From: a virus
Direction: 5' to 3' (one strand)
DNA: 64,000 bases
Virus genome (UHGV): UHGV-0348865
In this document: piece by piece, positions 5,026 to 62,725 of the stretch
Layout of the letters: every line of letters begins with the position of its first letter
Numbering within the stretch: position 1 is the first letter of the stretch
The notes under the pieces: model-generated
The model's input: the letters and a program-made list of their open reading frames with translations, nothing else
Database searches by the model: none
Told to the model about the DNA's origin: nothing
Translations under genes and position numbers: made by a program

Positions 5026-5244
5026 TTAAGGTAGTATCTTTCTCAGAGCGTTAGATTCAGCATCAGGGCAAATAACAACTAAGTTATTTTGAATTGTTCT
5101 CTGCTTGCATTGAGAGCTAAGCTTCTCTACTGGAGCAGGGACAGTTACTAATGGATGAACTGCGCTTACAGGAACTGCGGTTGATACCACAACGCCTGCA
5201 ACTAAACAGATTAAACCATATGCAGCCTGTTTCATCATTTTCAT
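5026..5244 (-). CDS. small secreted/membrane protein next to endolysin (possible lysis accessory)
   Basis: 72-aa ORF with N-terminal hydrophobic signal-like segment; location beside endolysin. Confidence 0.35.
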   Translation of the reverse strand: MKMMKQAAYGLICLVAGVVVSTAVPVSAVHPLVTVPAPVEKLSSQCKQRTIQNNLVVICPDAESNALRKILP

Positions 5245-5303
5245 TTGAGTGTCTCCTATATATTAACCTCTTGGGATATATTAGTTTCATTACTTACTAA
5301 GGG

Positions 5304-5333
5304 TACTTACTACTAAAGCCCCCGAAGGGGGCT
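5304..5333 (-). terminator. candidate terminator after tail fibre gene
   Basis: AGCCCCCTTCGGGGGCT hairpin on the minus strand followed by a moderately T-rich tract. Confidence 0.45.
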
Positions 5334-7485: not shown

Positions 7486-10400
7486 TTAACGAGCTTTCAG
7501 TACAGCTACTTCATTCTCTAGAGCTTCAATCTTGTCCAAGAGGACAAGAAGAACTTCGTGATGAAGAGCGGCTGCTACACCATAGGTGTCAACAGATTTA
7601 ACATCCTTCACAATTGTTCCATCTTTCAACTCCGTGTCAGAGAACTTAGTAACCTTGACGGCATCCGGAAAAACCTTCTCAACATCTTGAGCTAAGAAAC
7701 CAATACCATTGGGCTTAGAGAGTTTATCCAACCGCTCCCATGTTACACCCTTAATAGCTTTAAGTTTCTCTATAGGGTTTTCAATCCGTTTGATGTTCGT
7801 CTTAAGCCTCTCATCAGAGGTGCTTGCCCAATTTCCTGCTTGTGCCGTTCCATCAGGAAAGAACTTGAAGTCAGCAGCTGTTCCAGTACCACCATTCACA
7901 GAAATCTGAGCGTGCATCAACTCTGTTCCACCACCACGAACACCACCAAAAGTGTAACTGCCATCATACCAGTCACCAGAGAAATAGGAAACATACCCCG
8001 GAGTACTTTGGTTGAAATTGATCATCCTGATAGCGTTCTTCTCACTTGGTGCTACACCAACAGAATTGTTAGCCCTGACCAGCACGTCAGTAGGTCTTAA
8101 GTATGCATCAATTGTTAGTGCCCCGTCAGCCCTCTCTGTTCCAATCTGGGTGATAGCATTGGGAAATACCAGAGTACCAGCATTATTGAATTTCCATTCC
8201 TGGTTTCCATTAAGAATCTTAGCACCAGACTTATTAGAAGCCCCATCTATCTCTCCATAAGCAGACATAGTTGCTGAGTAGGTTAAATCTGTTCCTATCT
8301 TATATTCTGAACGAACCAGACCACCAGATACAGTAAACCCAGCCGATGGTTTAACATCATCGCTATTAATAACACTCCAAGAAGTATTAGCAGCAGTAAA
8401 GCCACCATTAGCACGAATCACCCAGACACCTATGAAGCTGTTGGTGCGGACTTCGGTCGTGTTGTCGCGACCATAAGCGGCGTTTGATAGGCCCGCTCGA
8501 AAGCCGACGGAAAGCGCTGGTGTGGTTCCTGCGCCTAACGGAATATTAAGTGCTGGATCAGCCGCAAACATCGCCCCCGTAGGATCTCCATATACGCTCC
8601 ATATGTTCGCACCAACGGAGCCTGTAATATCAGGCGCGGCGTTCTGCTGAACAGTACCGTCGTTGGCGCTGTTACCACCGTCACCGCGAGCATACAGACC
8701 AGAGATAGAACCGGTTTGAACGCCATTTCTATCAGGAACGCGGAAAGTAGTAGAACCATCACCTAAAGAGTATTTACCTCTTTTCTGAGGATCAGCCAGC
8801 CAGTCAGCATCTGTGATAGGGCTTAAGGCTTGAGCATAAGCCCATAAATCTGGATATGAAGTACGAGACAAAAGTTGTCCATCAGAAGGTACATCATTAG
8901 AGTGAATTAAAGCACGACTATCAATTAAACGGAAATCACCTATGTTGAAGTTGGACACTCCGTTTAAGCTTGCACCACTTCCACCACCTCCTTGGTTGCG
9001 TAATTGACGAAGGGTAACTGCATCTGAATCACTAACCGCATCACCACCTAAACGAGTGGGACCAATCAATCCTTCCAGTTTCGTAATATCTGAGTTAACC
9101 CCAGAAGAGTTGATAGCAGCAGCACCAATAGCAGCAGGAGTAGGTTTGTTACCTTCAGTGTAAAACTTATTCTCACCGCTAGGACCAACATGCACAGGAA
9201 CCGAAGCAGACAGCACTTTTGTGTTACTTGTATCGTTGCCAACCAAGACAGTACCGTCAGAACCAGAGGTGATCAAATTAACAGCAACACCATTACTAGA
9301 AGTGCCTGTTAATACAATACCTGTTCCTAGATTTAAGTGTCCTGTCATTTTACCACCAGAAGTAGGAAGAGCACCTAAATCAGAAGAGGTCAAAGCAACA
9401 TTACCTGTTACCTCGTCAGGAACTTTTCCATTAACTGCAACAACATATGGAACTTGAGCAAGAGGCTTACCATCATACTGAGCATCACTGGTAAGATTTG
9501 GAGATCGAATTGCTTCCCCTCCTGTCCAATCAGGCAGACGGATGTTGATGTAGTTTGTAGAATCCGCATCAGTGATACCGTCAGCAAGTTTACCCCAAGA
9601 ATAGTATTGCTTTGAACCAGCCTGCCACTCTGTCTCAGAAACTACCGGAAGCTGACCGTTGACCAAAGAAGCTCCTAAATCTGATGCAGTGTCTTTGGAA
9701 ACCAAACGACCATCAGCAGGCAAAATACCCGGGTAAGAAACAGGACGAGATGGGTCATATGGAAACATCAACAATTCACCAAGATACAGAGATGGGTTCC
9801 CTGTCGGGATGGTGATATCAATATTACCAGTTGAGTCAGGAATACGAGAGTTTACTGTTATTACCCTATTCTCTGTCTTAACTGGGGTTAATGTTTTGTT
9901 CGAAGCTACAGTATAAAATTCATATTTGTAATCTTCCCAAACCAGAACGTTCTCACCAGTTTTTCTGTTAACAGCATCGGCATCAGCCGCAGCTTTTGTT
10001 CTGTATGTTTTAACATAACCATCCACTTTCCCATCAACCTGAGATGTACTGTAAGATGCAACGTTTACGACATTATTTAAACCAACTGAAGTTTTATCTA
10101 AGACTAGATTAACATCACCGGTAGCTGGAGATCCTCCGTTCACTGCAACTGAACGAACAGATGGGATTAAGTTAGCGATATCCTCTAAGGTTGTTTTATG
10201 TACGGTATTATCGTCCTTATCAACATAGAATCCTAAATCACCAAGCTCAGGAATACCTGTAGGTGCTGTATCCAAGTCTTTAACAGAACCATCTTTTCCG
10301 GGTTCGCCTTCTGGGATACCTAAAGAGATTACACCAGTGTTAGGGTTAAAAGAACCAGTAGCTTGACTCCCCGGAGGAAGGGTAGTTACATCAACAGACA

Positions 10401-11636: not shown

Positions 11637-12149
11637 TTAAGCAGGTGTTACACCAGTAAAAGTGCATGTTGCATTGATAGACGGGTCAGCTGTCAAACTA
11701 GCTTGAACAGTAACTTCGCCACTTGCAGCAGCATCTAATTTTAACGAATTATTAGCGCTTATTGTACCAGCTTCTACGGGAGTTACAACAAGTGTGTAAT
11801 CATCAGCAACAGAATTGGTTACAGTAAACATGGTGTTGAAGTTAGTGGTAGTACCACCTACTTTACCTGTAATTGGCCCACGACTCACAATAGTAGGAGC
11901 AGGAGCAACAATTTCAGAAATGGTTGCTGTACCAGAAACACCTTCTAAAGTTGCAGTAATGGATACATCAGTGGATTGAGACGCACTCGGAGCAGTATAC
12001 AAACCAGACTGAGTGATAGAACCACCTCCTGTCACTGACCAAGTAAAGCCAGTTGTTTCGGTAGAACCATCACTTTTCTCCGCGCTTGCAGTGAACTGCC
12101 GAGTAGCCCCTGTCTCTAGACTTGCTAAAGACGCAGGGCTAACAGTCAC
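11637..12149 (-). CDS. Ig-like (Big_2-type) domain ORF; probably the C-terminal extension of the capsid protein made by -1 frameshifting
   Basis: Ig-like sequence; its frame is open upstream through the capsid 3' end and across a GGGAAAG slippery heptamer at 12173-12179. Confidence 0.5.
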   Translation of the reverse strand: MTVSPASLASLETGATRQFTASAEKSDGSTETTGFTWSVTGGGSITQSGLYTAPSASQSTDVSITATLEGVSGTATISEIVAPAPTIVSRGPITGKVGGTTTNFNTMFTVTNSVADDYTLVVTPVEAGTISANNSLKLDAAASGEVTVQASLTADPSINATCTFTGVTPA

Positions 12150-27827: not shown

Positions 27828-28124
27828 ATGACTTTAGAAGTATATAAATTCCTTTTTGTAAGCTGTTTAACTATCAGCGTTATAGGATTTATTGTTCTCA
27901 GAAACAAAGCAGCAAGCTGGGAGAGAATGTATAAATCCCTAGTCCGAGTGGATGAGATGTATAATGAGAAAGTTAAAGTAACTCTTAACGATCTTATTAT
28001 GCAAGTTGAAGACAGAAACAAGCGTCTTCAGAACCTCAATCATGAAGTGTTGCGCCTTGCTCGTGCTAATGAAGACTTACGAGTGGCTATTGCTAAGCAG
28101 CAGGAGATTAACAGTGAAAGTTAA
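27828..28124 (+). CDS. membrane-anchored coiled-coil protein
   Basis: N-terminal transmembrane segment then heptad-like helical region. Confidence 0.4.
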   Translation: MTLEVYKFLFVSCLTISVIGFIVLRNKAASWERMYKSLVRVDEMYNEKVKVTLNDLIMQVEDRNKRLQNLNHEVLRLARANEDLRVAIAKQQEINSES

Positions 28125-28350
28125 TATTAAATCTGATCGTACAATGCTTCGATTAAATAATATGAAGCCGGGGGTTCTGTTTGAGCGTAAAGAATCCCTT
28201 TATATTAGAACCGACACATTGTACGCAGACAATTATGTCAACTGTGTTGATGTGGTAACTGGAAAGCTCATGCCTTTTAAACGGGATGAAATTTGCCAAG
28301 TACGCAGCGATCTCCACATAACTAACATAGAGACTAAAGATGAAGATTGA
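28114..28350 (+). CDS. small paralogue family member 1
   Basis: GTG start overlapping previous stop; shares family pattern (hydrophobic-G-x-[VL]-F ... Y-[IM] ... [CA]-[VI]-[ND]-[VL]-x-[TN]-G). Confidence 0.4.
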   Translation: MKVNIKSDRTMLRLNNMKPGVLFERKESLYIRTDTLYADNYVNCVDVVTGKLMPFKRDEICQVRSDLHITNIETKDED

Positions 28351-28591
28351 TCTTGAGTTTAAGAATCCAGAGCTGAAAGTAGGTGATTTGAAACTTGGAG
28401 ATGTATTCCAAGTGAAGGCAACATGTATTGACCATTACATGATTGTCCAGCTATACACACCACATGTGTCAGAGACTGATCTTCGGAATGGTTGTGTAGT
28501 ACTTAGTTTAAATACCAATCAAGTAATGAAGCTAGACTCAAACTTACCTGTTTCGGTTATCCATAATGTAGTAATTACCAATCGGAAGTGA
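28340..28591 (+). CDS. small paralogue family member 2
   Basis: KLGDVFQV...HYMIVQL...GCVVLSLNTNQ pattern. Confidence 0.45.
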   Translation: MKIDLEFKNPELKVGDLKLGDVFQVKATCIDHYMIVQLYTPHVSETDLRNGCVVLSLNTNQVMKLDSNLPVSVIHNVVITNRK

Positions 28592-28806
28592 TTATGAACA
28601 TTGAAAAGAAGGTTGCTGATGAGGCTGTTCAGTTGCGATCTCTTGAAACACATGATGTATTTGTGTGGAGAGGTAGCCTGTTTCAGAAATCTGCCTATGC
28701 TGTAGAGGGCGGGGTTCGTTGTTTTAATATCCTTAACAACGAGATGCAAATCCTTCCTAACTTCGCTCATGTTAATAAGTTAGTTCATCTAACCATCAAT
28801 CAATAA
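28588..28806 (+). CDS. small paralogue family member 3
   Basis: THDVFVWRGSLF...VRCFNILNNE pattern; ATGA overlap with previous. Confidence 0.45.
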   Translation: MIMNIEKKVADEAVQLRSLETHDVFVWRGSLFQKSAYAVEGGVRCFNILNNEMQILPNFAHVNKLVHLTINQ

Positions 28807-28816
28807 AGGTAAGTAG

Positions 28817-29035
28817 ATGGAAATTAAAGTAGTTGATTATCCTAAATATGCAAATGCAGAAGACGTTAAAGGTGGTGATGTTTTCTCTTACGACAGACGT
28901 TTCTGGCTGATGTTAGAAGATAAAACTCCCGATGGTTTGTGTAAGGCCGCTAACCTGAACAGTGGTTCTGTTGAAGTCTTCGGTCTATCAACCACTGTTA
29001 TGCCACGTCCTGATCTGTGTTTATCCCAAAAGTAA
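28817..29035 (+). CDS. small paralogue family member 4
   Basis: KGGDVFSYDRRFWLML...CKAANLNSGS pattern. Confidence 0.45.
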   Translation: MEIKVVDYPKYANAEDVKGGDVFSYDRRFWLMLEDKTPDGLCKAANLNSGSVEVFGLSTTVMPRPDLCLSQK

Positions 29036-29040
29036 CACCG

Positions 29041-29150
29041 ACTTATAGCCCTTGTGTTTATCAGAGGGCTATGTGAGGGTGTTCCTCATTAACTTATTAA
29101 TTCAGGCATATGCCACACCGCTAGGGAGAGCTTGCTCGAACATCCGGTGT
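29041..29150 (+). ncRNA. conserved non-coding element, copy 1 (hairpin ACTTATAGCC...GGGCTATGTGAG plus GCTAGGGAGAG...CTCGAACATCCG block)
   Basis: same arrangement recurs at 35487-35605; no ORF. Confidence 0.4.
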
Positions 29151-29523
29151 TAGACTAAAACCTGTTAATTTTCGAAAGACTTTCCGATATGTAGGGGTAC
29201 GTATTGGTTTGGGATTCAGGAGACTTCCTAGGGGTAGGGAGTCTTCACCAGTTGGGATAAGAGATAGCTCTAGAACCTGAACTCTTAGGCAGAGAAGGTC
29301 GGCAATGAGTACGCGGTCAGGGTTAGTCTACTGACTAGGGCTATCCCTTATATCAACTGGCAATAATGCCTCCACTAACAAAGAGAGATAGGTATGAAAG
29401 TATCAACCAAACGTATGAACCGCCCTGAACGTATGGATGCAGTAGCTAATGGTGCTCTGAAACTGGAAGGCTTCTGGATTCATGCAATGTCAGCCATTCG
29501 TAACAAGCAAGGCAATTGGACCT

Positions 29524-29733
29524 ATGCCGGTTAAAACAGTTCATGTAATAGGTATGCGAGAGATCATTCGCATTGCCTTGATGGAACACACTGATCGCAA
29601 CGCTCAACTAACGCAAATCTCTAAGTGTCTTAACTGCTCAAGAGATGTGGCTAAGGAGTTGATGTTCGCATTCCTTTATAATGCAGAAGACGAGATGCTA
29701 CAGAATCATCTGATTCGTGGTGTGAGTCAATAA
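29524..29733 (+). CDS. hypothetical small protein
   Basis: ATG overlapping stop of a 46-codon upstream ORF (29394-29534). Confidence 0.35.
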   Translation: MPVKTVHVIGMREIIRIALMEHTDRNAQLTQISKCLNCSRDVAKELMFAFLYNAEDEMLQNHLIRGVSQ

Positions 29734-29736
29734 AGA

Positions 29737-29768
29737 AAGGCTGCCTTCGGGCGGCCTTTGTTGTTTTA
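29737..29768 (+). terminator. rho-independent terminator
   Basis: AGGCTGCC-TTCG-GGCGGCCT hairpin followed by TTGTTGTTTT. Confidence 0.65.
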
Positions 29769-29811
29769 ATTAAGGGACAACTCTTACTTAAACTAACAAG
29801 AGGAAGCTAAA

Positions 29812-29988
29812 ATGTCTAAGCAAACAATCAAACATACTCAAGCTGGTTACTCTTATGTCAACTCCCCTTGCTGCGGTGCTCGTATTAGTCTGGTTAAGGA
29901 AGAGGTTCGTATCGTTCAGCGTGGCGCTACTGTTGTTCGTGCATGCTGTGTATGTGGTAATGATATTTTCATTAAAGGTAAAGTATGA
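29812..29988 (+). CDS. small zinc-ribbon protein
   Basis: 58-codon ORF not in track; CCGA...CCVCGN Cys pairs; AGGAAG ribosome-binding site. Confidence 0.4.
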   Translation: MSKQTIKHTQAGYSYVNSPCCGARISLVKEEVRIVQRGATVVRACCVCGNDIFIKGKV

Positions 29989-30209
29989 TTATCGTTCGCT
30001 CTGAGCCTAAAGATAACACTTTTGGCAGCCTCCGTAATGGTGATGTGTTCTCTCTAGAGATAGACGGGGATACAAAACCTCCTTTATATATGAAGGTTAT
30101 GCACAGACATGCTATCTGTATAAATAACCCTGAAACAAGATTTACATTTGATAGAAGTTGTCCTGTCAGATTTTATCAAGCTACCCTAAACGTCAGGAGA
30201 GTAGGATGA
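29985..30209 (+). CDS. small paralogue family member 5
   Basis: RNGDVFSLEI...LYMKV...AICINNPETR pattern. Confidence 0.45.
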   Translation: MIIVRSEPKDNTFGSLRNGDVFSLEIDGDTKPPLYMKVMHRHAICINNPETRFTFDRSCPVRFYQATLNVRRVG

Positions 30210-30457
30210 AAAACTTCCAAGCTGCACCAATCACTAAAGTGATCGAAGTTGACGGTGTGATGATGACTGTTCCTCTGAATACCCGTCACATTGCGATTGA
30301 TAAGATGGGATATGTGTGGGCTTGGAAGATTAAGCCCTCTTACAATGAACTCTTTGATGAGTTTGTTTGCACTGGCACATATAGCCCTACGTTCTTGGGT
30401 ATCTTTGAAGATTTCAAAGGCAAGCCTAAGATTATCACACTCCCTGCATGTGCTTGA
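30206..30457 (+). CDS. hypothetical small protein
   Basis: internal ATG with GGAGAGTAGG ribosome-binding site; overlaps previous stop. Confidence 0.4.
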   Translation: MKNFQAAPITKVIEVDGVMMTVPLNTRHIAIDKMGYVWAWKIKPSYNELFDEFVCTGTYSPTFLGIFEDFKGKPKIITLPACA

Positions 30458-30464
30458 GGTTGTT

Positions 30465-30719
30465 ATGAAAGTTTCTAAACGCTGGGCAATATTTGGAGAG
30501 ATTCAAATAGGTGGTGAGATTAGGAGTGGAAGCTCCCAACTTGTAGCAGTGTTTGACTCTTATCCAACAGAAGAGTTCCTTATGAAGCTTTCTATTCCTG
30601 AACCTCGAAAGAAGGATGTAATTAAGCGCATTCTGGAAAGGGGTGTAGGTTTCTGGAAAGAGGATTGGTACTCTAAAGGCTATATACTCAGAGAGATTGA
30701 TTATGTTCAAATGGTTTAA
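30465..30719 (+). CDS. hypothetical small protein
   Basis: ATG with GAGG ribosome-binding site. Confidence 0.4.
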   Translation: MKVSKRWAIFGEIQIGGEIRSGSSQLVAVFDSYPTEEFLMKLSIPEPRKKDVIKRILERGVGFWKEDWYSKGYILREIDYVQMV

Positions 30720-30900
30720 ACGTCTCGTGCATCTGCACGATTGGGTAATCCTTGAAAAATATTCTCTGAGGATTACCGATGATTGTGGCGGGACAAAGCA
30801 CAAAGGTCTCCGCTATATCATGCAGTGTAAAGTGTGTGGTAGTATTACCTATCGTGACATTATTTAAATAAATCTGCGCTCTTAGCTCAACGGAGGGGTT

Positions 30901-31329
30901 TTGAAGATAGAGTTAGAATACCCCTTCGTCAATGACTGGCGATTGGGTTACTTAAGAACAAGTAGAGATGGTAGGAAGCGTGTTGATTTGTACAACTCCG
31001 ACACGGAAAGGACAACCATTTCTTACGCAAGATATTTAATGTCTTGTTATGTGGGTAGATACTTAACTTCAGAGGAAGAGGTTGATCATATTGATCAGGA
31101 CTCAACCAATGATGAGATTTCCAACTTACAGATTCTAAGTATCAGTGAACATTTAGAGAAGACATTAAAACATAGGGTTAAGGGTGCAGTATCAATCTTG
31201 ACTTGTGCCAACTGTGGTGTACTTTTCGAACGGAGAGAAAATAAAATACACAAAAAGAATCAGAATTATTTTTGTAGCAGATCTTGCAACGGTAAGTATT
31301 ACTGGAGCAATGGTTTCAATAACAAATGA
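30901..31329 (+). CDS. HNH homing endonuclease
   Basis: TTG start after GGAGGGG; motif EVDHIDQD...NDEISNLQILS..EH and C-terminal Cys cluster. Confidence 0.6.
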   Translation: MKIELEYPFVNDWRLGYLRTSRDGRKRVDLYNSDTERTTISYARYLMSCYVGRYLTSEEEVDHIDQDSTNDEISNLQILSISEHLEKTLKHRVKGAVSILTCANCGVLFERRENKIHKKNQNYFCSRSCNGKYYWSNGFNNK

Positions 31330-31340
31330 GAGTTCTTAAT

Positions 31341-31419
31341 GGGGGTGTACCTCACCCGTCTTCTAAACGGGCGTTAATCGAGTAATTGGAGTATGCAGGT
31401 TCGAGTCCTGTCTCCCCCT
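31341..31419 (+). ncRNA. tRNA-like element with canonical T-arm; possible tRNA (anticodon-like loop CTTCTAA would give UCU/Arg) but D-arm not resolved by eye
   Basis: T-arm GCAGG-TTCGAGT-CCTGT; 7-bp acceptor-like pairing GGGGGTG/CTCCCCC; flanked by 10-nt inverted repeat AGAGTTCTTA/TAAGAACTCT. Confidence 0.4.
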
Positions 31420-31436
31420 CTAAGAACTCTTGGAGA

Positions 31437-31766
31437 ATGTTTATGTTTAAAAAAGTATTATTACTATGTACTCTCTCACTAAGCCCTCTGGTTATGTCAG
31501 CTGATTTGAATTTCCTAGATGGGTCTTCCTCTTATTTAAAAAGAGAGAGAGGTTTGGTTAACAGTAGAACTCCTGATGAGGGATATTTTGTTGGATATAC
31601 AACCTCCACTACACGAAATATTGCTAATTGTAGCTCATCGGGAACCTTAAACAAAGTTGTGTGGGAGGTTGTTGCTTTATACATTGAACAGCATCCTGAG
31701 AGACGTCATCTAAGCAATGATGATCTTATCATAGAGGCTGTAAACAACGCTTGGTGTAATAAATAA
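31437..31766 (+). CDS. secreted protein (signal peptide)
   Basis: N-terminal MFMFKKVLLLCTLSLSPLVMSA signal. Confidence 0.45.
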   Translation: MFMFKKVLLLCTLSLSPLVMSADLNFLDGSSSYLKRERGLVNSRTPDEGYFVGYTTSTTRNIANCSSSGTLNKVVWEVVALYIEQHPERRHLSNDDLIIEAVNNAWCNK

Positions 31767-31782
31767 ACCATAGGAGGTGCTT

Positions 31783-32064
31783 ATGAGTTGGGGTGGTGTA
31801 ATATCCTTAATCTGTATCTTCCTTGTCTGTGTGGCCCTTACAGGCTGCGTACAGAGCCGTCCTGATGGATGGTGTGCATTATCTGTTGAAGGTGTGTGCG
31901 TATCTCGTTGGCATAAGGGTGAGAAGGTTCCTTCTGGTGAAATTGATATGCGTTACAGTGGTATCTCATGCCTGAATGGTGCAGCAGTAGATGAGGAGAC
32001 TAAAACCTTGTCAGATGCGCAGTGGTGTGGTGGCTCTGTAACAACAACCGGTAAGGAGTGGTAA
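31783..32064 (+). CDS. lipoprotein, Cys-rich
   Basis: signal peptide ending in lipobox-like LTGC; several Cys. Confidence 0.45.
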   Translation: MSWGGVISLICIFLVCVALTGCVQSRPDGWCALSVEGVCVSRWHKGEKVPSGEIDMRYSGISCLNGAAVDEETKTLSDAQWCGGSVTTTGKEW

Positions 32065-32065
32065 C

Positions 32066-32314
32066 ATGACAGCTCATTATTGGAATACAAAGAAGCTCCT
32101 TGAAGAGATGGCTGGAGTTAGTAAGTTCCAGTTAAATTCCATGCTTCGAATGGATGCTCGCTCTTTACGCTTCCAAGTAAAGATTGGTAACTTCAGCGAT
32201 GGCCTTTACTACACACTGAAGGAAAGGATTAAGAAGACTCACTTCATCATATATGGACTCAAACCGAGAACATATGTTAACTACATGTATTGGGATACAT
32301 GCTACGATAATTGA
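32066..32314 (+). CDS. hypothetical small protein
   Basis: 82-aa ORF. Confidence 0.35.
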   Translation: MTAHYWNTKKLLEEMAGVSKFQLNSMLRMDARSLRFQVKIGNFSDGLYYTLKERIKKTHFIIYGLKPRTYVNYMYWDTCYDN

Positions 32315-32321
32315 GGTTATT

Positions 32322-32543
32322 ATGAAACTAGACTCTAAGCAGTCACTTAAAACCGTTGAGCTGTCCACGCTGCCAAACGGAAGTATTTTTGGTCATGATA
32401 AACACTTCTGGATTAAAACAGACATCATAAACGATGGATATATCACCTGTGTCAATCTTTGGAACGGCTCAGTGGATGGTTATCGCCCTAGCACAAAGGT
32501 GGTCCCTCAGCCTGATGCTAAGGCTGTAGGTTTAGTTTACTAA
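32322..32543 (+). CDS. small paralogue family member 6
   Basis: PNGSIFGHDKHFWIK...YITCVNLWNGS pattern; start at internal ATG with GAGG ribosome-binding site. Confidence 0.45.
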   Translation: MKLDSKQSLKTVELSTLPNGSIFGHDKHFWIKTDIINDGYITCVNLWNGSVDGYRPSTKVVPQPDAKAVGLVY

Positions 32544-32552
32544 GGAGTTCAT

Positions 32553-32726
32553 ATGAGCTGTTATGGTGGCGGTGAAGTATACGATGACGATGATATGGAA
32601 TCTAACGATACATGCCCTGATTGTGGGTGCGAAACATTTGATGGAGTGTCAGTATATCCTACCTGTAGTTATTCACCAGTGATCTGTAAAACATGTGGAG
32701 ATCAACCTTGTGATGAGTCTTGTTAG
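32553..32726 (+). CDS. small Cys-rich acidic protein
   Basis: 57-aa ORF not in track; multiple CxxC pairs; AAGGAG ribosome-binding site. Confidence 0.4.
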   Translation: MSCYGGGEVYDDDDMESNDTCPDCGCETFDGVSVYPTCSYSPVICKTCGDQPCDESC

Positions 32727-32955
32727 TGTGTTAATAGCCTATCTGATAGGATCAGTAGTATCAGGTGTTCTGATTAAGATTATAGATGTTAAAGGAAATC
32801 AGTGTTTCCGAGATTGGGATGGTGAGCCAGACCTCGGAAAGATAGCAGCTATGGTTTTCTTGTGGCCTATTATTGCTGTACTATTTATAGCACTCGTAGC
32901 ATGGGCTGCTCTTTGGGATTTCATCCTTCCTAACAAAAAGTATGAGGACTCATGA
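32713..32955 (+). CDS. small membrane protein
   Basis: two predicted transmembrane segments. Confidence 0.4.
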   Translation: MSLVSVLIAYLIGSVVSGVLIKIIDVKGNQCFRDWDGEPDLGKIAAMVFLWPIIAVLFIALVAWAALWDFILPNKKYEDS

Positions 32956-33564
32956 CTAAAGAATTTTTAGAGTGGTTTGGTGATACCTTCAAAGAGTATC
33001 TATTCTCTCCAGAAGACTTTGAAGAACTGAAAACCTACACTTGGTTGGCTTGGAGAGATAGCCGACGAGAGATGAATAAGTAATATCGTGAAGGATTCTT
33101 ACGAGAGTCCTTTGAGATAGGACTTCAGATCTCCTATCAAACTAACATTCATGTAACTAGCCCATAAGGGCGTTACCCTTTAATAACCCAGCCCACTAAG
33201 GGGGCGGGAGTTTAGTGCTGGATTAGCATAACGCTTATTCCTACAAAGGCAACCGATTGTTAGATCTTACATGCAATATTAATTAATAGGATATGGGAGG
33301 GTTCGTCCCCTCCCCCTATTTATAAATTATCAGGAGAGTGCATTAGCTGATTAGCTGTAGAAGGGAGGCCGATACTACAGTGTGGCCCAGAGCTAGTGTA
33401 CTCTCCTGATGAGGCACCTCCTCATCGTGGTAAGCTGTGGAATGATCTTTACAGTAGTTACTTGAAGTAGCCTGTACGGCCCTCAGCAAAGAGTCCGGAC
33501 GATATCTGAGTGACTTTAAAAACAGATGGAGCCAGGTGGAATCCCTGGCAATTAATTACAGGTA

Positions 33565-33700
33565 TAGCTTATGTGACCCAGTAATGCAGAGTCTACGGTA
33601 AAGCAGTCGCCCGTGGTCGAATGACCGTATGCCCATTGGATGCATTCCTTTGGTGATGGCTAGGGAGTCCGAGCGTAGGTTCGAATCCTACACCTGTAAT
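33565..33700 (+). ncRNA. structured RNA candidate with tRNA-type T-arm closed by a 9-bp long-range stem
   Basis: T-arm GTAGG-TTCGAAT-CCTAC at 33675-33691; ATTACAGGT (33565-33573) pairs with ACCTGTAAT (33692-33700); region 33060-33730 has no ORF. Confidence 0.35.
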
Positions 33701-33730
33701 CAAATTGAATAATATCTAATTGGAGGATGT

Positions 33731-34042
33731 ATGAAAGCACGAAGAACTATATGGACTCCGATGCAGATTGAAAATCTTCGGAGACTAATCAAAGAGTACT
33801 CGGTTCAAGAAGTTGCTCAGATCATGAATGTAACGGAGAATGCCGTTAACACAGCTTGCACTAAGTTTGGTATATCAAGAGCTTCAATCCGAGTTAAGTG
33901 GTCTAAAGAAGAAGATCAGTTCCTTATCCGTAATGCTGGGTTCATGCCTATCCAGAGAATGGCTGACATGCTCGGTAGAAGTTATGCTGCTGTGCAGAAC
34001 AGGGCATGTATGCACCTTAACATTAGCCTAAAACTTAAATAG
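33731..34042 (+). CDS. DNA-binding regulator with two tandem HTH-like repeats
   Basis: two repeats of W...E..L.......S..E.A..M.....AV resembling sigma region 4 / Myb-like HTH. Confidence 0.4.
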   Translation: MKARRTIWTPMQIENLRRLIKEYSVQEVAQIMNVTENAVNTACTKFGISRASIRVKWSKEEDQFLIRNAGFMPIQRMADMLGRSYAAVQNRACMHLNISLKLK

Positions 34043-34050
34043 GAATCAAT

Positions 34051-34296
34051 ATGAAGATCATCCCAAAGATTAAAGATAACACTGTTTCACTGGCTACAAT
34101 TATTCCCGGAAACCCTTTCGTAGTTCAGAGAGGAACAGCATCTCCTCAGTATTACATCCGTGTCAGTAACGTGTCCAACAAAATCTCTGTAGAAGAGGGT
34201 TGGATTACGACAGTAAATCTACTGACTGGTGTACTGGGTGTTATGAAAAGTGATGCCCCAGTTGAAGTGATTCGTATGTCTGTGGTTCAGGAGTAA
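34051..34296 (+). CDS. small paralogue family member 7
   Basis: PGNPFVVQRG...YYIRV...ITTVNLLTG pattern. Confidence 0.45.
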   Translation: MKIIPKIKDNTVSLATIIPGNPFVVQRGTASPQYYIRVSNVSNKISVEEGWITTVNLLTGVLGVMKSDAPVEVIRMSVVQE

Positions 34297-34303
34297 TAAG
34301 TAG

Positions 34304-34552
34304 ATGAGCACCATTAATATTAAAGTTAAGCATAAGAAAGAGAACATCCTCAGGGTTATGGATTTATTCAGAGCCGACGTCTTTACTTTAAAACAGTGTC
34401 CAACTTCCCATACCTACATGCTAACGAACCCGAGCAATGGTCTTAAGCCCGCTGGGGCGGTTAATCTGGGAACTGGAGAACTTCGGACAATTGCTGGTGA
34501 TATGGTTGTTGATGAGAAGTTTAGTAAAGTCGAAATGATCTTGACTCCTTAG
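34304..34552 (+). CDS. small paralogue family member 8
   Basis: RADVFTLKQ...YMLTN...GAVNLGTG pattern. Confidence 0.45.
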   Translation: MSTINIKVKHKKENILRVMDLFRADVFTLKQCPTSHTYMLTNPSNGLKPAGAVNLGTGELRTIAGDMVVDEKFSKVEMILTP

Positions 34553-34694
34553 GAAAACAAATGAGACTTAAAGCATATTCTTATGACGATATGATTAACC
34601 AAAAAGGCTTCGGTCAACGACAGCCTGACGGTTCAATTATCTGGTTCGTAAATGGACAGAAAAAGGTAGCTAAATAAGCCCTCTTCTCTCCTCC

Positions 34695-34711
34695 TTTTAG
34701 TACTATGACGC
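34695..34711 (+). promoter_or_regulatory. conserved 17-mer TTTTAGTACTATGACGC (copy 2)
   Basis: identical to 26611-26627; followed by hairpin GCGTAGGG...CCCTCTACGC and T-run. Confidence 0.45.
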
Positions 34712-34783
34712 CTCTCTGTGGGCGGCCCAATTTGCGTAGGGAATTCCCTCTACGCAGCCATGACTTTTTAAGGAATTTCCCCT

Positions 34784-35017
34784 ATGTCTAAAGTAAGCGC
34801 AATCGATGCAATCCGTCAACCGTTCCAGTTCCAATCTAAATCAACCCAAACCTTCAGTGAGCCTAAGCAAATTCGCTTGGGTGGCACAGAGAAAACTGTG
34901 TTTGATCTGGCTAAAAACAAGAGTGTTACCGTGGTTGATGGTGGCACTCTGGTTAACGTTTCCCATCGTATCCGCACTGGCAAAACTGCCAAAGATCGTG
35001 CTAAGAAAGGTGAGTAA
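34784..35017 (+). CDS. hypothetical small protein
   Basis: 77-aa ORF. Confidence 0.35.
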   Translation: MSKVSAIDAIRQPFQFQSKSTQTFSEPKQIRLGGTEKTVFDLAKNKSVTVVDGGTLVNVSHRIRTGKTAKDRAKKGE

Positions 35018-35259
35018 TGAAAATAGGGAAACCAGCTAAGGATGTTCTAGCGAAGATTAGTGATATCTCTACTGGGGAAGTTTTCTCAGCAGAGCACTTT
35101 TCAAGTTACTACATGAAAATCCCTGACACTAAAGTAGAGGGTTGCATCATCCCTGCCAACGCAGTTAACCTGAACACAGGACATTTGTCTGCATTCAAAC
35201 CTGATTCACAGGTTACTGAAATCAAAGATGCCTACCTTGCCTTTGGTGGAGATAAATAG
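35017..35259 (+). CDS. small paralogue family member 9
   Basis: STGEVFSAEHFSSYYMKI...ANAVNLNTG pattern. Confidence 0.45.
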   Translation: MKIGKPAKDVLAKISDISTGEVFSAEHFSSYYMKIPDTKVEGCIIPANAVNLNTGHLSAFKPDSQVTEIKDAYLAFGGDK

Positions 35260-35260
35260 C

Positions 35261-35476
35261 ATGATAACACTCGTGTCTGTCGTTTACAGATTACACTACC
35301 GTCTGGATAAAGGAAAATCCTATAAATGCAAGAGTAAGACAGGGAATCGATGCTCTGTAGAGAACAACTCTGGTCAATGGGTGGATGTTCCTTGTTGCTG
35401 GTTCAGGAAAGATTTGACTAGCAAAGAGATTGACGAAATTCTTAGTGATGATTTTGTAAAATCAGGCGATTTTTAG
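35261..35476 (+). CDS. hypothetical small Cys-containing protein
   Basis: ATG overlapping upstream stop. Confidence 0.35.
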   Translation: MITLVSVVYRLHYRLDKGKSYKCKSKTGNRCSVENNSGQWVDVPCCWFRKDLTSKEIDEILSDDFVKSGDF

Positions 35477-35486
35477 ATAGAGTGAC

Positions 35487-35605
35487 ACTTATAGCCTTCC
35501 CTCCGGAGGGCTATGTGAGTTATTCTGACTCAACTAACCTAATCTTAATATATTTCCCGTATGGGGCCGATGCTAGGGAGAGGAATAATCCTCGAACATC
35601 CGTCG
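35487..35605 (+). ncRNA. conserved non-coding element, copy 2
   Basis: hairpin ACTTATAGCC...GGGCTATGTGAG and block GCTAGGGAGAG...CTCGAACATCCG shared with 29041-29150. Confidence 0.4.
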
Positions 35606-50088: not shown

Positions 50089-50298
50089 ATGAGGCCAATC
50101 ACTATGAGAAAGTTTTGGTTAGCGAAGATTAAGTGGGCATCAGGTGGTATGACTATGACTGCACTGCCTACTCGTCAACAGGCTCGAGATTTTAAAAAGT
50201 CTATGTTTAATATGGACTTAACTAAGAGCATCAGTATTCATAAGGCCAGAGAGTATTCCTCTGGTCGTGTTTATATCAGCGGAAAGGTACATTACTGA
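50089..50298 (+). CDS. small basic protein, paralogue pair member A
   Basis: tandem with 50298..50507; shared KKSM...SIH...E.S.G pattern. Confidence 0.4.
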   Translation: MRPITMRKFWLAKIKWASGGMTMTALPTRQQARDFKKSMFNMDLTKSISIHKAREYSSGRVYISGKVHY

Positions 50299-50507
50299 TG
50301 AAAAAGATGTGGGCTATTCGTGTTGTTTGGAATCACGAGCAACACTTGGGAAAAGATAATATCAAACTGTTTAACACTCGCAAAGAGGCTCGTATTGCTA
50401 AAAAGAGTATGAAAGCTCTGGTCGGTACAGTTGAACATGTTAGCATACATCGTTGGGTTGAATTCTCAGAAGGTACTAGTATGCTATCTCGGAATGTTTA
50501 CTACTGA
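50298..50507 (+). CDS. small basic protein, paralogue pair member B
   Basis: tandem duplicate of 50089..50298. Confidence 0.4.
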   Translation: MKKMWAIRVVWNHEQHLGKDNIKLFNTRKEARIAKKSMKALVGTVEHVSIHRWVEFSEGTSMLSRNVYY

Positions 50508-50579: not shown

Positions 50580-50906
50580 ATGTTAGATTTGAGTAAAGTG
50601 GCCCCGCCCACTGAAGAGATTACAAAATCCAAGGTGATGCAACAGTTTTATCATCGTGATATGCTTGGTCGCTTTATCAAGAATCGTGATGTTGTTGCTT
50701 GGTCTATTGGTAATCAGGGATATCTGTTGAAGGTTCTTCAGGTTACAGGTTCAACTGCTAAGAGAGTTAAGGTGTATGACCCTGAAATGGGGCGTTCTAA
50801 GTCAGTAGACCCACAGAACTGCATCGTAATTACCCAGCAGATCCTAAGTAATCTAGAAAGAAATGTAGCAAATTCTACTGAGTTAGAAGGAGAAGACCCT
50901 AAGTGA
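50580..50906 (+). CDS. hypothetical protein
   Basis: 108-aa ORF. Confidence 0.35.
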   Translation: MLDLSKVAPPTEEITKSKVMQQFYHRDMLGRFIKNRDVVAWSIGNQGYLLKVLQVTGSTAKRVKVYDPEMGRSKSVDPQNCIVITQQILSNLERNVANSTELEGEDPK

Positions 50907-51397
50907 TTCCAAAGGAATTGGAAGGGAAGATTGATGTAACAGAAGATGGTAGAGTATTTACCGTAAAGAGTAGAAGGTTTTTAACCCTCCACACTAATGG
51001 TGCCTATTATAGAGTCACTATTTACTTTCCTGACGGATTAAAGAATTTCTATGTCCACAGGCTGGTTGCTAGTAAGTACATACCGAACCCTGATAATCTT
51101 CCGTGTGTCAACCATAAGGATGGCAATAAACTTAACAATCATAAAGACAATCTTGAATGGTGTACCCACCGAGAAAACTCTCAACATGCATCATCATTAG
51201 GTTTGATGGTACAGAGGTTTGGAGAAGACAATCCGCAGTCTAAACTTACTCTAAAAGATGTAGAGTACTGTAGGAGAGTTTATATTCCTCGAGATAAAGA
51301 GTTTGGAGGCTCTGCCCTTGCAAGACGTTTTGGTGTCTCTCAGCAAGTGATATCAAAAGTTCTACTTAATCAAACTTGGAGGGAATATAATGCATAA
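50903..51397 (+). CDS. HNH homing endonuclease with C-terminal HTH-like region
   Basis: VNHKDGNKLNNHKDNLEWCTHRENSQH motif; paralogous to 54759..55253. Confidence 0.6.
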   Translation: MIPKELEGKIDVTEDGRVFTVKSRRFLTLHTNGAYYRVTIYFPDGLKNFYVHRLVASKYIPNPDNLPCVNHKDGNKLNNHKDNLEWCTHRENSQHASSLGLMVQRFGEDNPQSKLTLKDVEYCRRVYIPRDKEFGGSALARRFGVSQQVISKVLLNQTWREYNA

Positions 51398-54385: not shown

Positions 54386-54758
54386 ACAGTAACTTATAAT
54401 GTATACTCCTTAGTGTACACTGATATATTAAGGAGTTTTAAATGGCAGATCATGTAGGAAAGAGAGATTATGCACAAGAAAGACGTACCGCAATTGCCCG
54501 TGGTGAGACAGGCATTGGGAGCAAGAGCGGAGATGCTCAGCGCCACCGTGCACGTCGCATCGTTGAAAAGCGCGATGGAAAAGCTGCTGTCAGAGGTAAA
54601 GACGTTGGACACAAACGAGCTGTCAAGTCTGGAGGTTCTAATGCGTCAAGCAACTTACGTGTTGAATCAGTCAGCTCAAACCGTTCAAACGGCGGCAAAA
54701 GTGGTGATCGAGCTGGAAAAGCAGCTGGAGCCGCTAAGCGAAAAGGGGCACTGAGTCA

Positions 54759-55253
54759 GTGATTCCTATTAGAAGTTGGCTTTCTTATGATGAAAAATCT
54801 GGAAAGCTCTTCTTTACTTCATCTGCAGAAAAAGGTCGTAAGTGGAATAAGAGCCATCCCGGCAAAGAGGCTGGTCATATAAACCGAAAAGGTTATATAG
54901 GCATCTTTTTCGAGGGTAGGCATTGGAAAGCTCACAGACTTATAGCAACACATTTGATACCAAACCCTAACAACTATCCAGAGATAAATCATATAAATGG
55001 AATTAAATCTGATAACAGGTTGGAAAATCTTGAATGGGTGACTCCTTCTGAAAATGTGAGGCATTCATTTGATATAGGTTTAAATGTTGGAAAGGTTCGC
55101 GACCTTAATGCAGCCACCAAATTATCCTCTGGAGATGTTGTAAAGATCAAACAGATGTATGTGAAGGGTTCTAGGGATTTTGGCTCTAGAGGTCTTGGTA
55201 AGTTGTTCGGTGTGAGCCATACAGCTATACTCCATGCTTTAAAGGAGCTTTAA
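54759..55253 (+). CDS. HNH homing endonuclease with C-terminal HTH-like region
   Basis: INHINGIKSDNRLENLEWVTPSENVRH motif; paralogue of 50903..51397. Confidence 0.55.
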   Translation: MIPIRSWLSYDEKSGKLFFTSSAEKGRKWNKSHPGKEAGHINRKGYIGIFFEGRHWKAHRLIATHLIPNPNNYPEINHINGIKSDNRLENLEWVTPSENVRHSFDIGLNVGKVRDLNAATKLSSGDVVKIKQMYVKGSRDFGSRGLGKLFGVSHTAILHALKEL

Positions 55254-55299: not shown

Positions 55300-55333
55300 T
55301 ATAAATCAAGTTGAACTTTTTTAGGTAATAAAT

Positions 55334-55588
55334 ATGTCTATTGTAAAAATCGTAAATATTTTTGATGTAACCAGAGATGGCAAGATTGTTAAGTGGACTT
55401 TCACTAACCACCACAACAAATCAAACAAGATCATCGAACGCATGATTGAGATTAACCCTAAAACAGCTCGCACTAACGTACTCCTTCGCGGAGCTGATGG
55501 AAAATTTATCTCTTATAAGAATAAGAACGTAGAAAAATCTTTCCGTGTTGCAGTAGAAAACCTAATCCCATTCCCTAAAGGAGTTTAA
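55334..55588 (+). CDS. small protein, paralogue pair member A
   Basis: shares KTARTNV.LR...GKFISY....PFPKG with 55590..55874. Confidence 0.4.
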   Translation: MSIVKIVNIFDVTRDGKIVKWTFTNHHNKSNKIIERMIEINPKTARTNVLLRGADGKFISYKNKNVEKSFRVAVENLIPFPKGV

Positions 55589-55589
55589 T

Positions 55590-55874
55590 ATGAATAAATT
55601 AGCTATGGTTCAAATTCGAGATACTTTTCCTCTGCGTGAGAATATGAAACCACGTACTTGGTCTTACCTGCTAGCTGAGAGTAAGACTATCAACAAATAT
55701 TTTGTAGAGATTGATTGTATCCCAACTAGTATCACATTACTCCCTCACAAAACAGCCAGAACTAATGTGATGTTACGTGACAGCAAAGGTAAGTTTATCT
55801 CTTATCGTGATTCACGAATCAATAACGAAATTAAATCTGCTATGGAATCTTTAATGCCATTCCCAAAAGGTTGA
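55590..55874 (+). CDS. small protein, paralogue pair member B
   Basis: tandem duplicate of 55334..55588. Confidence 0.4.
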   Translation: MNKLAMVQIRDTFPLRENMKPRTWSYLLAESKTINKYFVEIDCIPTSITLLPHKTARTNVMLRDSKGKFISYRDSRINNEIKSAMESLMPFPKG

Positions 55875-62302: not shown

Positions 62303-62311
62303 GGATAAATA

Positions 62312-62725
62312 GTGGAAGAAATCTGGAAAGATCATCCAACTCATGAATTCCTGTCAGTATCCTCTCTAGGGAGGGTTCTGATAAAACCGTTTGAGTCTCC
62401 AATGCCATATGGAGGCTTTAGGGTTTATACAAGTAAGCCTTCCTATTGGGTAAATAAAGTAGACGGTAGATGTGTTTTTGTGAGTAAAAGATATAAGCTC
62501 AGAAAGAGGGTTCATATTCTGGTGTGTGAAACATTTAATGGGCCAAAACCGTTTGAAGGGGCAGTTGTAATGCACCTGAACGATAACCCGTTAGACAATA
62601 GACCTGAAAATCTTAAGTGGGGTTCTCAAAAAGATAACCTCAATACTGAGTCTTTTATTGCATACTGTAAATCAAGGGTTGGTGATGATAACCCTCGAGT
62701 AAAAGGTATGCATAAGTTCATATAA
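62312..62725 (+). CDS. HNH homing endonuclease
   Basis: VVMHLNDNPLDNRPENLKWGSQKDN motif. Confidence 0.55.
   Translation: MEEIWKDHPTHEFLSVSSLGRVLIKPFESPMPYGGFRVYTSKPSYWVNKVDGRCVFVSKRYKLRKRVHILVCETFNGPKPFEGAVVMHLNDNPLDNRPENLKWGSQKDNLNTESFIAYCKSRVGDDNPRVKGMHKFI

What the first reader, a model, noticed from the sequence alone, without database searches (positions are those of the whole stretch)
28114..35259. Family of at least nine diverged small paralogous genes in the early region
ORFs at 28114, 28340, 28588, 28817, 29985, 32322, 34051, 34304 and 35017 encode 72-84-aa proteins sharing a loose pattern: N-terminal hydrophobic/basic segment, G-[DNE]-[VP]-F, an aromatic-[ILM] pair, then [CA]-[VI]-[ND]-[LV]-x-[TSN]-G. 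Several are translationally coupled by ATGA overlaps. A repeatedly duplicated, fast-diverging small-protein family among early genes is the signature expected of host-takeover or anti-defence effectors, but no function can be read from the sequence.
Basis: seen in the sequence. Interest (0 to 1): 0.75.

Follow-up and report, generated by a model that had tools for sequence, protein, structure and literature searches.

The report
Nine SH3-like small early phage proteins
The nine small genes are real, anciently diverged copies of one uncharacterised phage protein family, an SH3-like beta-barrel of about 75 residues found in many unrelated phages, which most likely works as a binding module, though no target or function is known for any member.

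Summary
All nine ORFs exist at the stated coordinates in the early region of a phiEco32-like Kuravirus. The 28588 gene more likely starts at ATG 28594.

A profile built only from 98 unrelated external sequences picks out exactly these nine among 646 window ORFs (E 9e-19 to 5e-9; next best 0.18). AlphaFold models of the best and the weakest member (pLDDT 89 and 88) are the same five-stranded SH3-like barrel.

The family is large: 957 clusters at 50% identity and at least 10 PHROGs, all of unknown function. It has no Pfam, NCBIfam or PDB sequence match. Members include N4 gp21, LUZ24 gp7, PaP3 ORF.65, four genes of phage 7-11 and a Lachnospiraceae prophage gene.

"Fast-diverging recent duplicates" is not supported. 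Orthologues are under purifying selection (dN/dS 0.03-0.27). Every paralogue scores higher against a relative from outside the Kuravirus orthogroups than against its best in-window paralogue. Gene content does turn over: 12 orthogroups in five Kuraviruses, six of them variable.

Conserved positions are core hydrophobics and glycine turns, with no catalytic-type residues, and most members are acidic. I infer stoichiometric binding modules with paralogue-specific targets. LUZ24 gp7, the only member I could link to an experiment, was not growth-inhibitory. Function remains unknown.

The parts
28114..28350 (+). Family member 1 (78 aa, GTG start). Orthologue of phiEco32 gp115 (91% aa). Core orthogroup, phrog_16423.
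28340..28591 (+). Family member 2 (83 aa). Orthologue of phiEco32 gp114 (70% aa). Core orthogroup, phrog_9955.
28588..28806 (+). Family member 3. 72 aa from GTG 28588, but more likely 70 aa from ATG 28594. No orthologue in phiEco32, ShigP1 or XT73; present in CHD5UKE1. Variable orthogroup, phrog_33163.
28817..29035 (+). Family member 4 (72 aa). Orthologue of phiEco32 gp113 (98.6% aa). Absent from XT73. phrog_6570.
29985..30209 (+). Family member 5 (74 aa), the most divergent, with a degenerate NLxTG hairpin. Orthologue of phiEco32 gp109 (97% aa). phrog_10911. ATGA overlaps at both ends.
   Evidence: (BLAST 2e-9 to gp98)
32322..32543 (+). Family member 6 (73 aa). Orthologue of phiEco32 gp104 (94.5% aa). 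phrog_6570. Modelled as an SH3-like barrel, pLDDT 89.3.
34051..34296 (+). Family member 7 (81 aa). Orthologue of phiEco32 gp96 (68% aa). phrog_7431, the same PHROG as phage N4 gp21.
34304..34552 (+). Family member 8 (82 aa). Orthologue of phiEco32 gp95 (67% aa). phrog_12612, shared with member 9.
35017..35259 (+). Family member 9 (80 aa). No orthologue in phiEco32, ShigP1 or CHD5UKE1; present in XT73. Variable orthogroup, phrog_12612. 1-nt TAATG overlap with the upstream gene.

Best explanation
The nine genes encode anciently diverged members of a widespread, unnamed phage superfamily of free-standing proteins of about 70-85 aa. Each folds into a five-stranded SH3-like small beta-barrel, closed by a conserved N-terminal M-K-I strand and a C-terminal A-x-L-x-I segment.

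Shown:
- common ancestry and a common fold
- purifying selection on each orthologue
- location in the early, sigma-70-transcribed block of a phiEco32-like Kuravirus
- 8-9 copies per Kuravirus genome, with a core set and a variable set

Inferred:
- The proteins are non-enzymatic binding modules.
- The invariant core provides the scaffold. The variable strand faces and loops, especially the length-variable segment between the Y-M-K strand and the V-N-L-x-T-G hairpin, give each paralogue its own macromolecular partner, most likely a protein.
- They act stoichiometrically early in infection to modulate or neutralise host factors. These are more likely non-essential targets, such as defence or stress-response components, than essential machinery.

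My confidence that the family, the fold and the paralogy are real is about 0.95. My confidence in the binding-module or effector mechanism is about 0.5.
For: Family and paralogy.

Fold:
- AF2 pLDDT 89.3 and 88.4 for the strongest and weakest members.
- The two models share structural neighbours in BFVD.
- The profile even picks up genuine eukaryotic SH3 repeats (P0171).

Non-enzymatic scaffold: conserved columns are hydrophobic or aromatic core residues plus Gly turns, with no conserved His, Cys, Ser or Glu.

Not a general nucleic-acid binder: external members have median pI 5.1; 68% are below 6 and 10% above 8.

Functional genes: dN/dS is 0.03-0.27.

Accessory character: 12 orthogroups in 5 Kuraviruses, 6 of them variable. 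Copy number is 1 in N4, LUZ24, PaP3 and a Lachnospiraceae prophage, and 4 in phage 7-11 and in an unrelated metagenomic contig.

Autonomous domain: the only longer architectures among the top 150 representatives are tandem repeats of the same domain.

Early-region location: synteny with phiEco32 gp95-gp115, and published temporal classes.

Non-toxicity of one member: LUZ24 gp7 was among 13 early genes expressed in P. aeruginosa and was not among the four inhibitory ones (PMC4635203).

Precedents for SH3-like proteins that act by binding: the VapX antitoxin and Nip, a phage counter-defence protein with SH3-like domains that binds a TIR NADase (PMC11984713).
Against: No target, interaction or phenotype is known for any member.

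Three window members are basic (pI about 9.2: 29985, 34051, 34304), so nucleic-acid binding is not excluded for them.

Low gene-wide dN/dS gives no sign of an arms race. Site-specific selection was not tested.

The external profile came from a search seeded with the nine, so it is partly circular. The independent PHROG models mitigate this.

The A2 and A3 alignments used for AF2 contain the whole family, which favours a common fold for 29985.
Confidence: 0.5

Rival explanations
1. Nucleic-acid-binding small barrels (Sm/Hfq-, KOW-, Tudor- or Sul7d-like) that act on phage or host RNA or DNA early in infection, for example as RNA chaperones, mRNA-stability factors or nucleoid-associated proteins.
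Against: Most of the family is acidic, with median pI 5.1 and only 10% above 8. There is no conserved basic or aromatic surface signature beyond K32. No Pfam KOW, Tudor or LSM match appears, even at E of 1 or below.
Confidence: 0.15
2. Phage-internal accessory factors: adaptors or chaperones that bind the phage's own early or middle proteins (replication, nucleotide-metabolism or transcription factors) rather than host targets.
For: Six orthogroups are conserved in all five Kuraviruses compared and are under strong purifying selection. LUZ24 gp7 is non-toxic. Members sit in replication or early modules in a prophage and in N4.
Against: No conserved neighbouring gene is shared between N4, LUZ24, the Lachnospiraceae prophage and the Kuraviruses. 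Half of the orthogroups are dispensable between close relatives.
Confidence: 0.2
3. Classical host-shutoff toxins: each paralogue inhibits an essential host machine such as RNAP, the replisome or the division apparatus, like gp79, T7 Gp2 or Gp0.4.
For: The genes lie among early genes that the literature assumes to serve host takeover. They are small in size.
Against: LUZ24 gp7 was not growth-inhibitory in P. aeruginosa. The known phiEco32 RNAP inhibitor gp79, identical in this window at 44702-44950, is unrelated in sequence. Variable presence between near-identical phages argues against essential-target functions.
Confidence: 0.1
4. Chance resemblance or non-coding ORFs: the shared pattern is not homology, or the ORFs are not genes.
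For: Pairwise identities are only 20-35%, and several pairwise subfamily profile comparisons are insignificant.
Against: Leave-one-out and external-profile searches separate the nine from all 637 other ORFs by at least 7 orders of magnitude. The members share a confident fold. dN/dS is far below 1. They have orthologues in 177 phage records.
Confidence: 0.02

Closest known systems
PHROG families 6570, 7431, 7832, 8365, 16423, 12612, 9955, 34455, 18793, 10911 and 33163 (all 'unknown function'); includes N4 gp21, LUZ24 gp7 and PaP3 ORF.65
   Same: Direct sequence membership. Each window protein hits one of these at E 1e-29 to 1e-48 and cross-hits others, and the family consensus hits ten of them. 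N4 gp21, LUZ24 gp7 and PaP3 ORF.65 score E 4e-18, 3e-9 and 4e-8 against the family profile.
   Different: These PHROGs are catalogued separately and unannotated. They have not been merged into one superfamily, given a fold or given a function. Those three phages carry one copy each (LUZ24 also has one weak unannotated candidate), against 8-9 in Kuraviruses.
SH3-like small beta-barrel superfold (eukaryotic SH3, KOW/EF-P domain I, Tudor, ribosomal L2 C-terminal region, DtxR C-terminal domain, FeoA)
   Different: No Pfam SH3, KOW, Tudor or FeoA model matches any member. The proteins are free-standing, with an extra conserved N-terminal M-K-I strand. Sequence identity to the structural neighbours is 5-18%. 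The relationship is at fold level only.
VapX antitoxin (PDB 6zn8), a small SH3-like protein that neutralises the VapD toxin by binding
   Different: No detectable sequence homology. VapX is encoded next to its toxin partner, whereas the phage genes have no conserved partner gene.
Nip (phi3T_120), a phage counter-defence protein with two predicted SH3-like domains that binds and inhibits the TIR NADase SpbK (PMC11984713)
   Same: Phage early-region protein built from SH3-like domains that works by direct binding to a host defence enzyme.
   Different: Nip is 279 aa and has an additional HU-like dimerisation domain. Homology to this family was not tested here. The tblastn search with the family consensus found no Bacillus phage.
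phiEco32 gp79 (RNAP-binding inhibitor of sigma-70 transcription; PMC12276001)
   Same: Same phage lineage, similar size (82 aa), non-structural gene. An identical copy lies in this window at 44702-44950.
   Different: No sequence similarity: no HMM hit.

Membership tests
The phage small-protein superfamily defined here (PHROGs 6570, 7431, 7832, 8365, 16423, 12612, 9955, 10911, 33163 and others) | Full-length match (about 70-85 aa) to the family profile, with the motif L-x-x-G-D-V-F ... Y-M-K ... A-V-N-L-x-T-G ... F ... V | tested here: met
   All nine score E 9e-19 to 5e-9 against a profile of 98 external sequences. PHROG hits are and column statistics.
The phage small-protein superfamily defined here | Common fold: a five-stranded SH3-like barrel | tested here: met
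   AF2 gives pLDDT 89.3 for 32322 and 88.4 for 29985, with the same strand order. Fifteen BFVD neighbours are shared among the top 50 of each model. Only two of the nine were modelled.
Canonical SH3 / KOW / Tudor / FeoA sequence families (Pfam) | Match to the Pfam model above the gathering score | tested here: not met
   No such match for any of the nine, for 112 family members or for the consensus sequences. One member gave EFP_N at E 0.095 only.
SH3-like small beta-barrel structural superfold | Structural superposition on solved SH3-like barrels | tested here: met
gp79-type RNAP inhibitors of phiEco32-like phages | Sequence homology to gp79 | tested here: not met
   The gp79 orthologue (44702-44950) is not detected by any family profile.
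Known anti-defence protein families | Experimentally shown inhibition of a defence system, or homology to a protein with that activity | not tested
   No homologue with known activity appeared in PHROGs, Pfam, NCBIfam or the PDB. The PADLOC library and Nip homology were not examined. A defence-inhibition assay is not possible with these tools.
Host-shutoff toxins of phage early regions | Growth inhibition on expression in the host | not testable with these tools
   The only published data found concern LUZ24 gp7, which was among 13 genes tested and not among the four inhibitory ones (PMC4635203).

The most novel reading that the evidence does not exclude
The family is a phage-wide, diversifiable binder scaffold: a minimal SH3-like barrel that phages swap and expand, up to nine per Kuravirus genome, as a repertoire of inhibitors. 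Each paralogue would neutralise a different host defence or stress-response protein, so the core and variable sets would map onto the defence systems met by each phage lineage.
Probability: 0.25. Interest if true: 0.75.

Novelty: new variant of a known kind. Interest (0 to 1): 0.5.

Why it matters
Roughly a thousand 50%-identity clusters of phage proteins, currently split over at least ten unannotated PHROGs and absent from Pfam, can be treated as one SH3-like superfamily. It has members in tractable model phages: N4 gp21, LUZ24 gp7, PaP3 ORF.65 and phiEco32 gp95-98, 104, 109 and 113-115.

Kuraviruses carry 8-9 copies, split into a core set and a variable set. This is a natural experiment for asking what small accessory binders do early in infection. 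If the paralogues have distinct targets, the family would be a compact source of new inhibitors of bacterial proteins or defence systems.

If they have no distinct targets, the result still removes nine 'ORFans' per genome from the unknown pile by giving them a fold and a family.

Tried and rejected
- Pfam, NCBIfam and PDB sequence searches gave no meaningful hits. The top PDB sequence hits were antibody framework regions, which are chance matches.
- Pairwise hhalign between the nine orthologue sub-alignments gave only weak links: E 9e-8 to 1, with 29985 connecting only at 1.5e-3. I relied instead on leave-one-out and external family profiles.
- tblastn of the family consensus against 50,697 phage records found only 5 records, so BLAST is too insensitive for this family.
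- The second homologous-protein search added little: 71 hits, none named.
- T4 positions 1-88,000 contain no member. T4 MotB is therefore not a member. The remaining 81 kb of T4 were not scanned.
- gp79 and PaP3 gp70.1 were considered as possible functionally characterised members and rejected: neither gave an HMM hit.
- The sigma-70 promoter and terminator scan of 24-37 kb was uninformative, with fewer promoter-like sites than in shuffles.
- The original phiEco32 papers (PMC2587145, PMC3275717) are not held. The early-class assignment rests on later papers that cite them.
- Six full-text literature searches found no description of this family.
Full report
**Context.** Megablast shows the window to be a phiEco32-like podovirus (Kuravirus, Gordonclarkvirinae): 177 phage records match 28000-35500 in patches of 85-95% identity. 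The region is syntenic with phiEco32 genes gp116 to gp88. [quoted passage not shown] GC skew changes sign near 22 kb, and all genes discussed here lie on the + strand.

**The observation.**
- All nine ORFs are present as described.
- 28114 uses GTG preceded by AGGAG, exactly as annotated for phiEco32 gp115.
- For 28588 the in-frame ATG at 28594 is the better start. It gives M-N-I, matching the family's conserved M-K-I N-terminus (M 98%, K 63%, I 78%), and the CHD5UKE1 orthologue is annotated at 70 aa.
- Junctions: 11-nt overlaps at 28114 and 28340, GTGA at 28588, ATGA on both sides of 29985, and TAATG at 35017. Elsewhere the gaps are 7-10 nt. Tight packing and probable coupling are real, although only two junctions are of the ATGA/GTGA type.

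**Is the similarity more than chance?**
- Pairwise identities are only about 20-35%, and several pairwise BLAST or hhalign comparisons are insignificant, so I used family-level tests.
- Leave-one-out HMMs were searched against all 646 stop-to-stop ORFs of 40 aa or more in the window. Each omitted member ranked first among non-training ORFs: E 1.4e-11 (35017), 4.5e-10 (32322), 1e-9 (34051), 2e-7 (28817), 2.2e-7 (28340), 3.5e-6 (28114), 1.1e-3 (28588), 4.5e-3 (34304) and 0.021 (29985). Noise began at 0.08-0.5.
- A profile of the nine found 957 representatives (clusters at 50% identity) at E of 1e-3 or below among 1.84 billion proteins. Nearly all are 65-85 aa and matched end to end.
- A new profile built only from 98 of those external sequences, each below 40% identity to any window member, recovers all nine at E 9e-19 to 5e-9. 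The next ORF scores 0.18. This is partly circular, because the external set was seeded by the nine.
- PHROG models are fully independent, and they cross-link the members. The family consensus hits ten PHROGs, including phrog_10911, the home of the weakest member 29985.
- 29985 also matches phiEco32 gp98, another member, at BLAST E 2e-9.
- There is no tenth member in the window.

**Fold.**
- AlphaFold2 on 32322 with a 112-sequence alignment gave pLDDT 89.3 and pTM 0.74, with five strands at residues 22-25, 28-37, 40-45, 51-54 and 59-62.
- The most divergent member, 29985, gave pLDDT 88.4 and pTM 0.77, with the same strand order plus N- and C-terminal strands.
- Its BFVD neighbours overlap those of 32322: 15 are shared among the top 50.
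- The family profile even detects genuine SH3 repeats in a fungal protein through the shared N-L-x-T-G hairpin (P0171).
- No Pfam SH3, KOW, Tudor or FeoA model matches any member, and no solved structure is detectable by sequence. This is a fold-level relationship only.
The caveat is that the alignments contained the whole family.

**Distribution.**
- BFVD and HMM scans place single members in N4 (gp21, E 4e-18, same PHROG as window 34051), LUZ24 (gp7, E 3e-9), PaP3 (ORF.65) and a Lachnospiraceae temperate prophage, where the gene sits between a DNA methylase and the terminase.
- Four copies occur in Salmonella phage 7-11 and four in an unrelated metagenomic contig of small genes.
- BFVD neighbours also come from phages of Erwinia, Klebsiella, Serratia, Yersinia, Vibrio and Mycobacterium.
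- T4 lacks it in the first 88 kb.
- The only longer architectures among the top representatives are tandem repeats of the same domain, at 125-184 aa. There are no fusions to other domains.

**Evolution.**
- phiEco32 also has nine members: gp115, 114, 113, 109, 104, 98, 97, 96 and 95.
- Five Kuraviruses together hold 12 orthogroups. Six are universal: the 28114, 28340, 29985, 32322, 34051 and 34304 types. Six are variable: the 28588, 28817 and 35017 types and three absent from this window. Each genome has 8-9 copies.
- Orthologue pairs with phiEco32 are 67-99% identical, with dN/dS 0.03-0.27. These are maintained genes, and gene-wide they are not fast-evolving.
- Each window paralogue scores higher against an external relative below 60% identity than against its best in-window paralogue. 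The external pool is larger, which biases this comparison. Even so, the copies clearly predate this lineage or were drawn from a shared pool.
- 'Repeatedly duplicated, fast-diverging' is therefore not the right description. 'Old, diverse repertoire with presence/absence turnover' is.

**Mechanistic inference.**
- Conserved columns are hydrophobic or aromatic core positions, two glycine turns (G20, G49) and a few structural polar residues (D21, K32, N45, T48). There is no conserved His, Cys, Ser or Glu pattern that would suggest catalysis.
- Indels concentrate between the Y-M-K strand and the V-N-L-x-T-G hairpin.
- The family is predominantly acidic: median pI 5.1, with 10% above 8. Three window members are basic at about 9.2.
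- Together with the free-standing single-domain architecture, this points to non-enzymatic binding modules with paralogue-specific surfaces. A general nucleic-acid-binding role is less likely.
- The single experimental datum I could connect concerns LUZ24 gp7 (YP_001671880, 77 aa). It was one of 13 early genes expressed in single copy in P. aeruginosa PAO1, and only gp4, gp6, gp9 and gp11 were inhibitory (PMC4635203). For that member a host-shutoff toxin is therefore unlikely.
- Precedents for SH3-like proteins that work purely by binding include the VapX antitoxin and Nip, a phage counter-defence protein that blocks a TIR NADase (PMC11984713). Neither was shown to be homologous to this family.
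- I commit to stoichiometric binders of host (or possibly phage) proteins, more likely of non-essential or defence-related targets, at about 0.5 confidence. The rivals are nucleic-acid binding (0.15), phage-internal adaptors (0.2), essential-target shutoff (0.1) and artefact (0.02).

**Comparison with the known.** The proteins belong to PHROGs of unknown function. They are unrelated to gp79, the one characterised small early protein of this lineage, which is present and 100% identical at 44702-44950. Six full-text searches found no paper that describes the family, its fold or its expansion.

**Verdict.**
- Novelty: a new family-level variant within two known kinds, SH3-like small barrels and multi-copy accessory genes of phage early regions.
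- Interest is moderate at 0.5. The family is large, unnamed and experimentally accessible in model phages, but nothing about it is mechanistically surprising yet.

Noticed in passing
window 31341-31419 (+), with 30901-31329 upstream: Rfam calls a tRNA here (33.2 bits, gathering score 29), but ARAGORN finds no tRNA anywhere in the window. The anticodon-loop region (CTTCTAA) and the T-arm align with the tRNA-Arg(TCT) of phiEco32 and ShigP1. The window copy has a different 5' half and an insert of about 18 nt after the anticodon stem. An HNH endonuclease ORF (142 aa) lies immediately upstream, at a position where phiEco32 has none. The tRNA may be degenerate, interrupted or atypical.
   Followed up: partly
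window 44702-44950 (+): This ORF is 100% identical in protein sequence to phiEco32 gp79, the characterised RNAP-binding inhibitor of sigma-70 transcription. It is unrelated to the nine-member family.
   Followed up: yes
window 29812-29988, 30697-30867, 32553-32726 (+): Three small Cys-rich ORFs (56-58 aa) with paired CxxC-type motifs, possibly zinc ribbons, are interspersed with the SH3-like genes. 29812-29988 is coupled to member 29985 by an ATGA overlap.
   Followed up: no
window 50089-50298 / 50244-50507; 50903-51397 / 54738-55253 / 62309-62725; 55325-55588 / 55566-55874 (+): Three further sets of paralogous ORFs lie downstream in the same transcription direction, with BLASTP E from 2e-6 to 7e-25. 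The window therefore holds several multi-copy families besides the one studied.
   Followed up: no
window 33083-33731: A stretch of about 650 bp has no + strand ORF of 40 aa or more. It lies between the gp101-like ORF and the D5-like regulator gene and contains a G+C-rich hairpin at 33295-33314. The corresponding gap in phiEco32 is about 290 bp. It may be a regulatory or promoter region.
   Followed up: no
L018 (LUZ24) 5100-5333 (+): An unannotated ORF between LUZ24 gp13 and gp14 gives a weak hit to the family profile (E about 1e-3). It may be a second, unannotated member in LUZ24.
   Followed up: no
L003 (metagenome contig ERZ27297759 k141_205253) 6279-6503, 6592-6846, 7965-8222, 11684-11920: An unrelated contig, made almost entirely of small genes each separated by about 100-130 bp, carries four members of the family. 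Multi-copy expansion is therefore not confined to phiEco32-like phages.
   Followed up: partly
window 44947-45132 (+): The gp78-like ORF (61 aa) repeatedly appears as the best sub-threshold hit of the family profiles (E 0.18-1.8). This is probably noise. It was not examined structurally.
   Followed up: no
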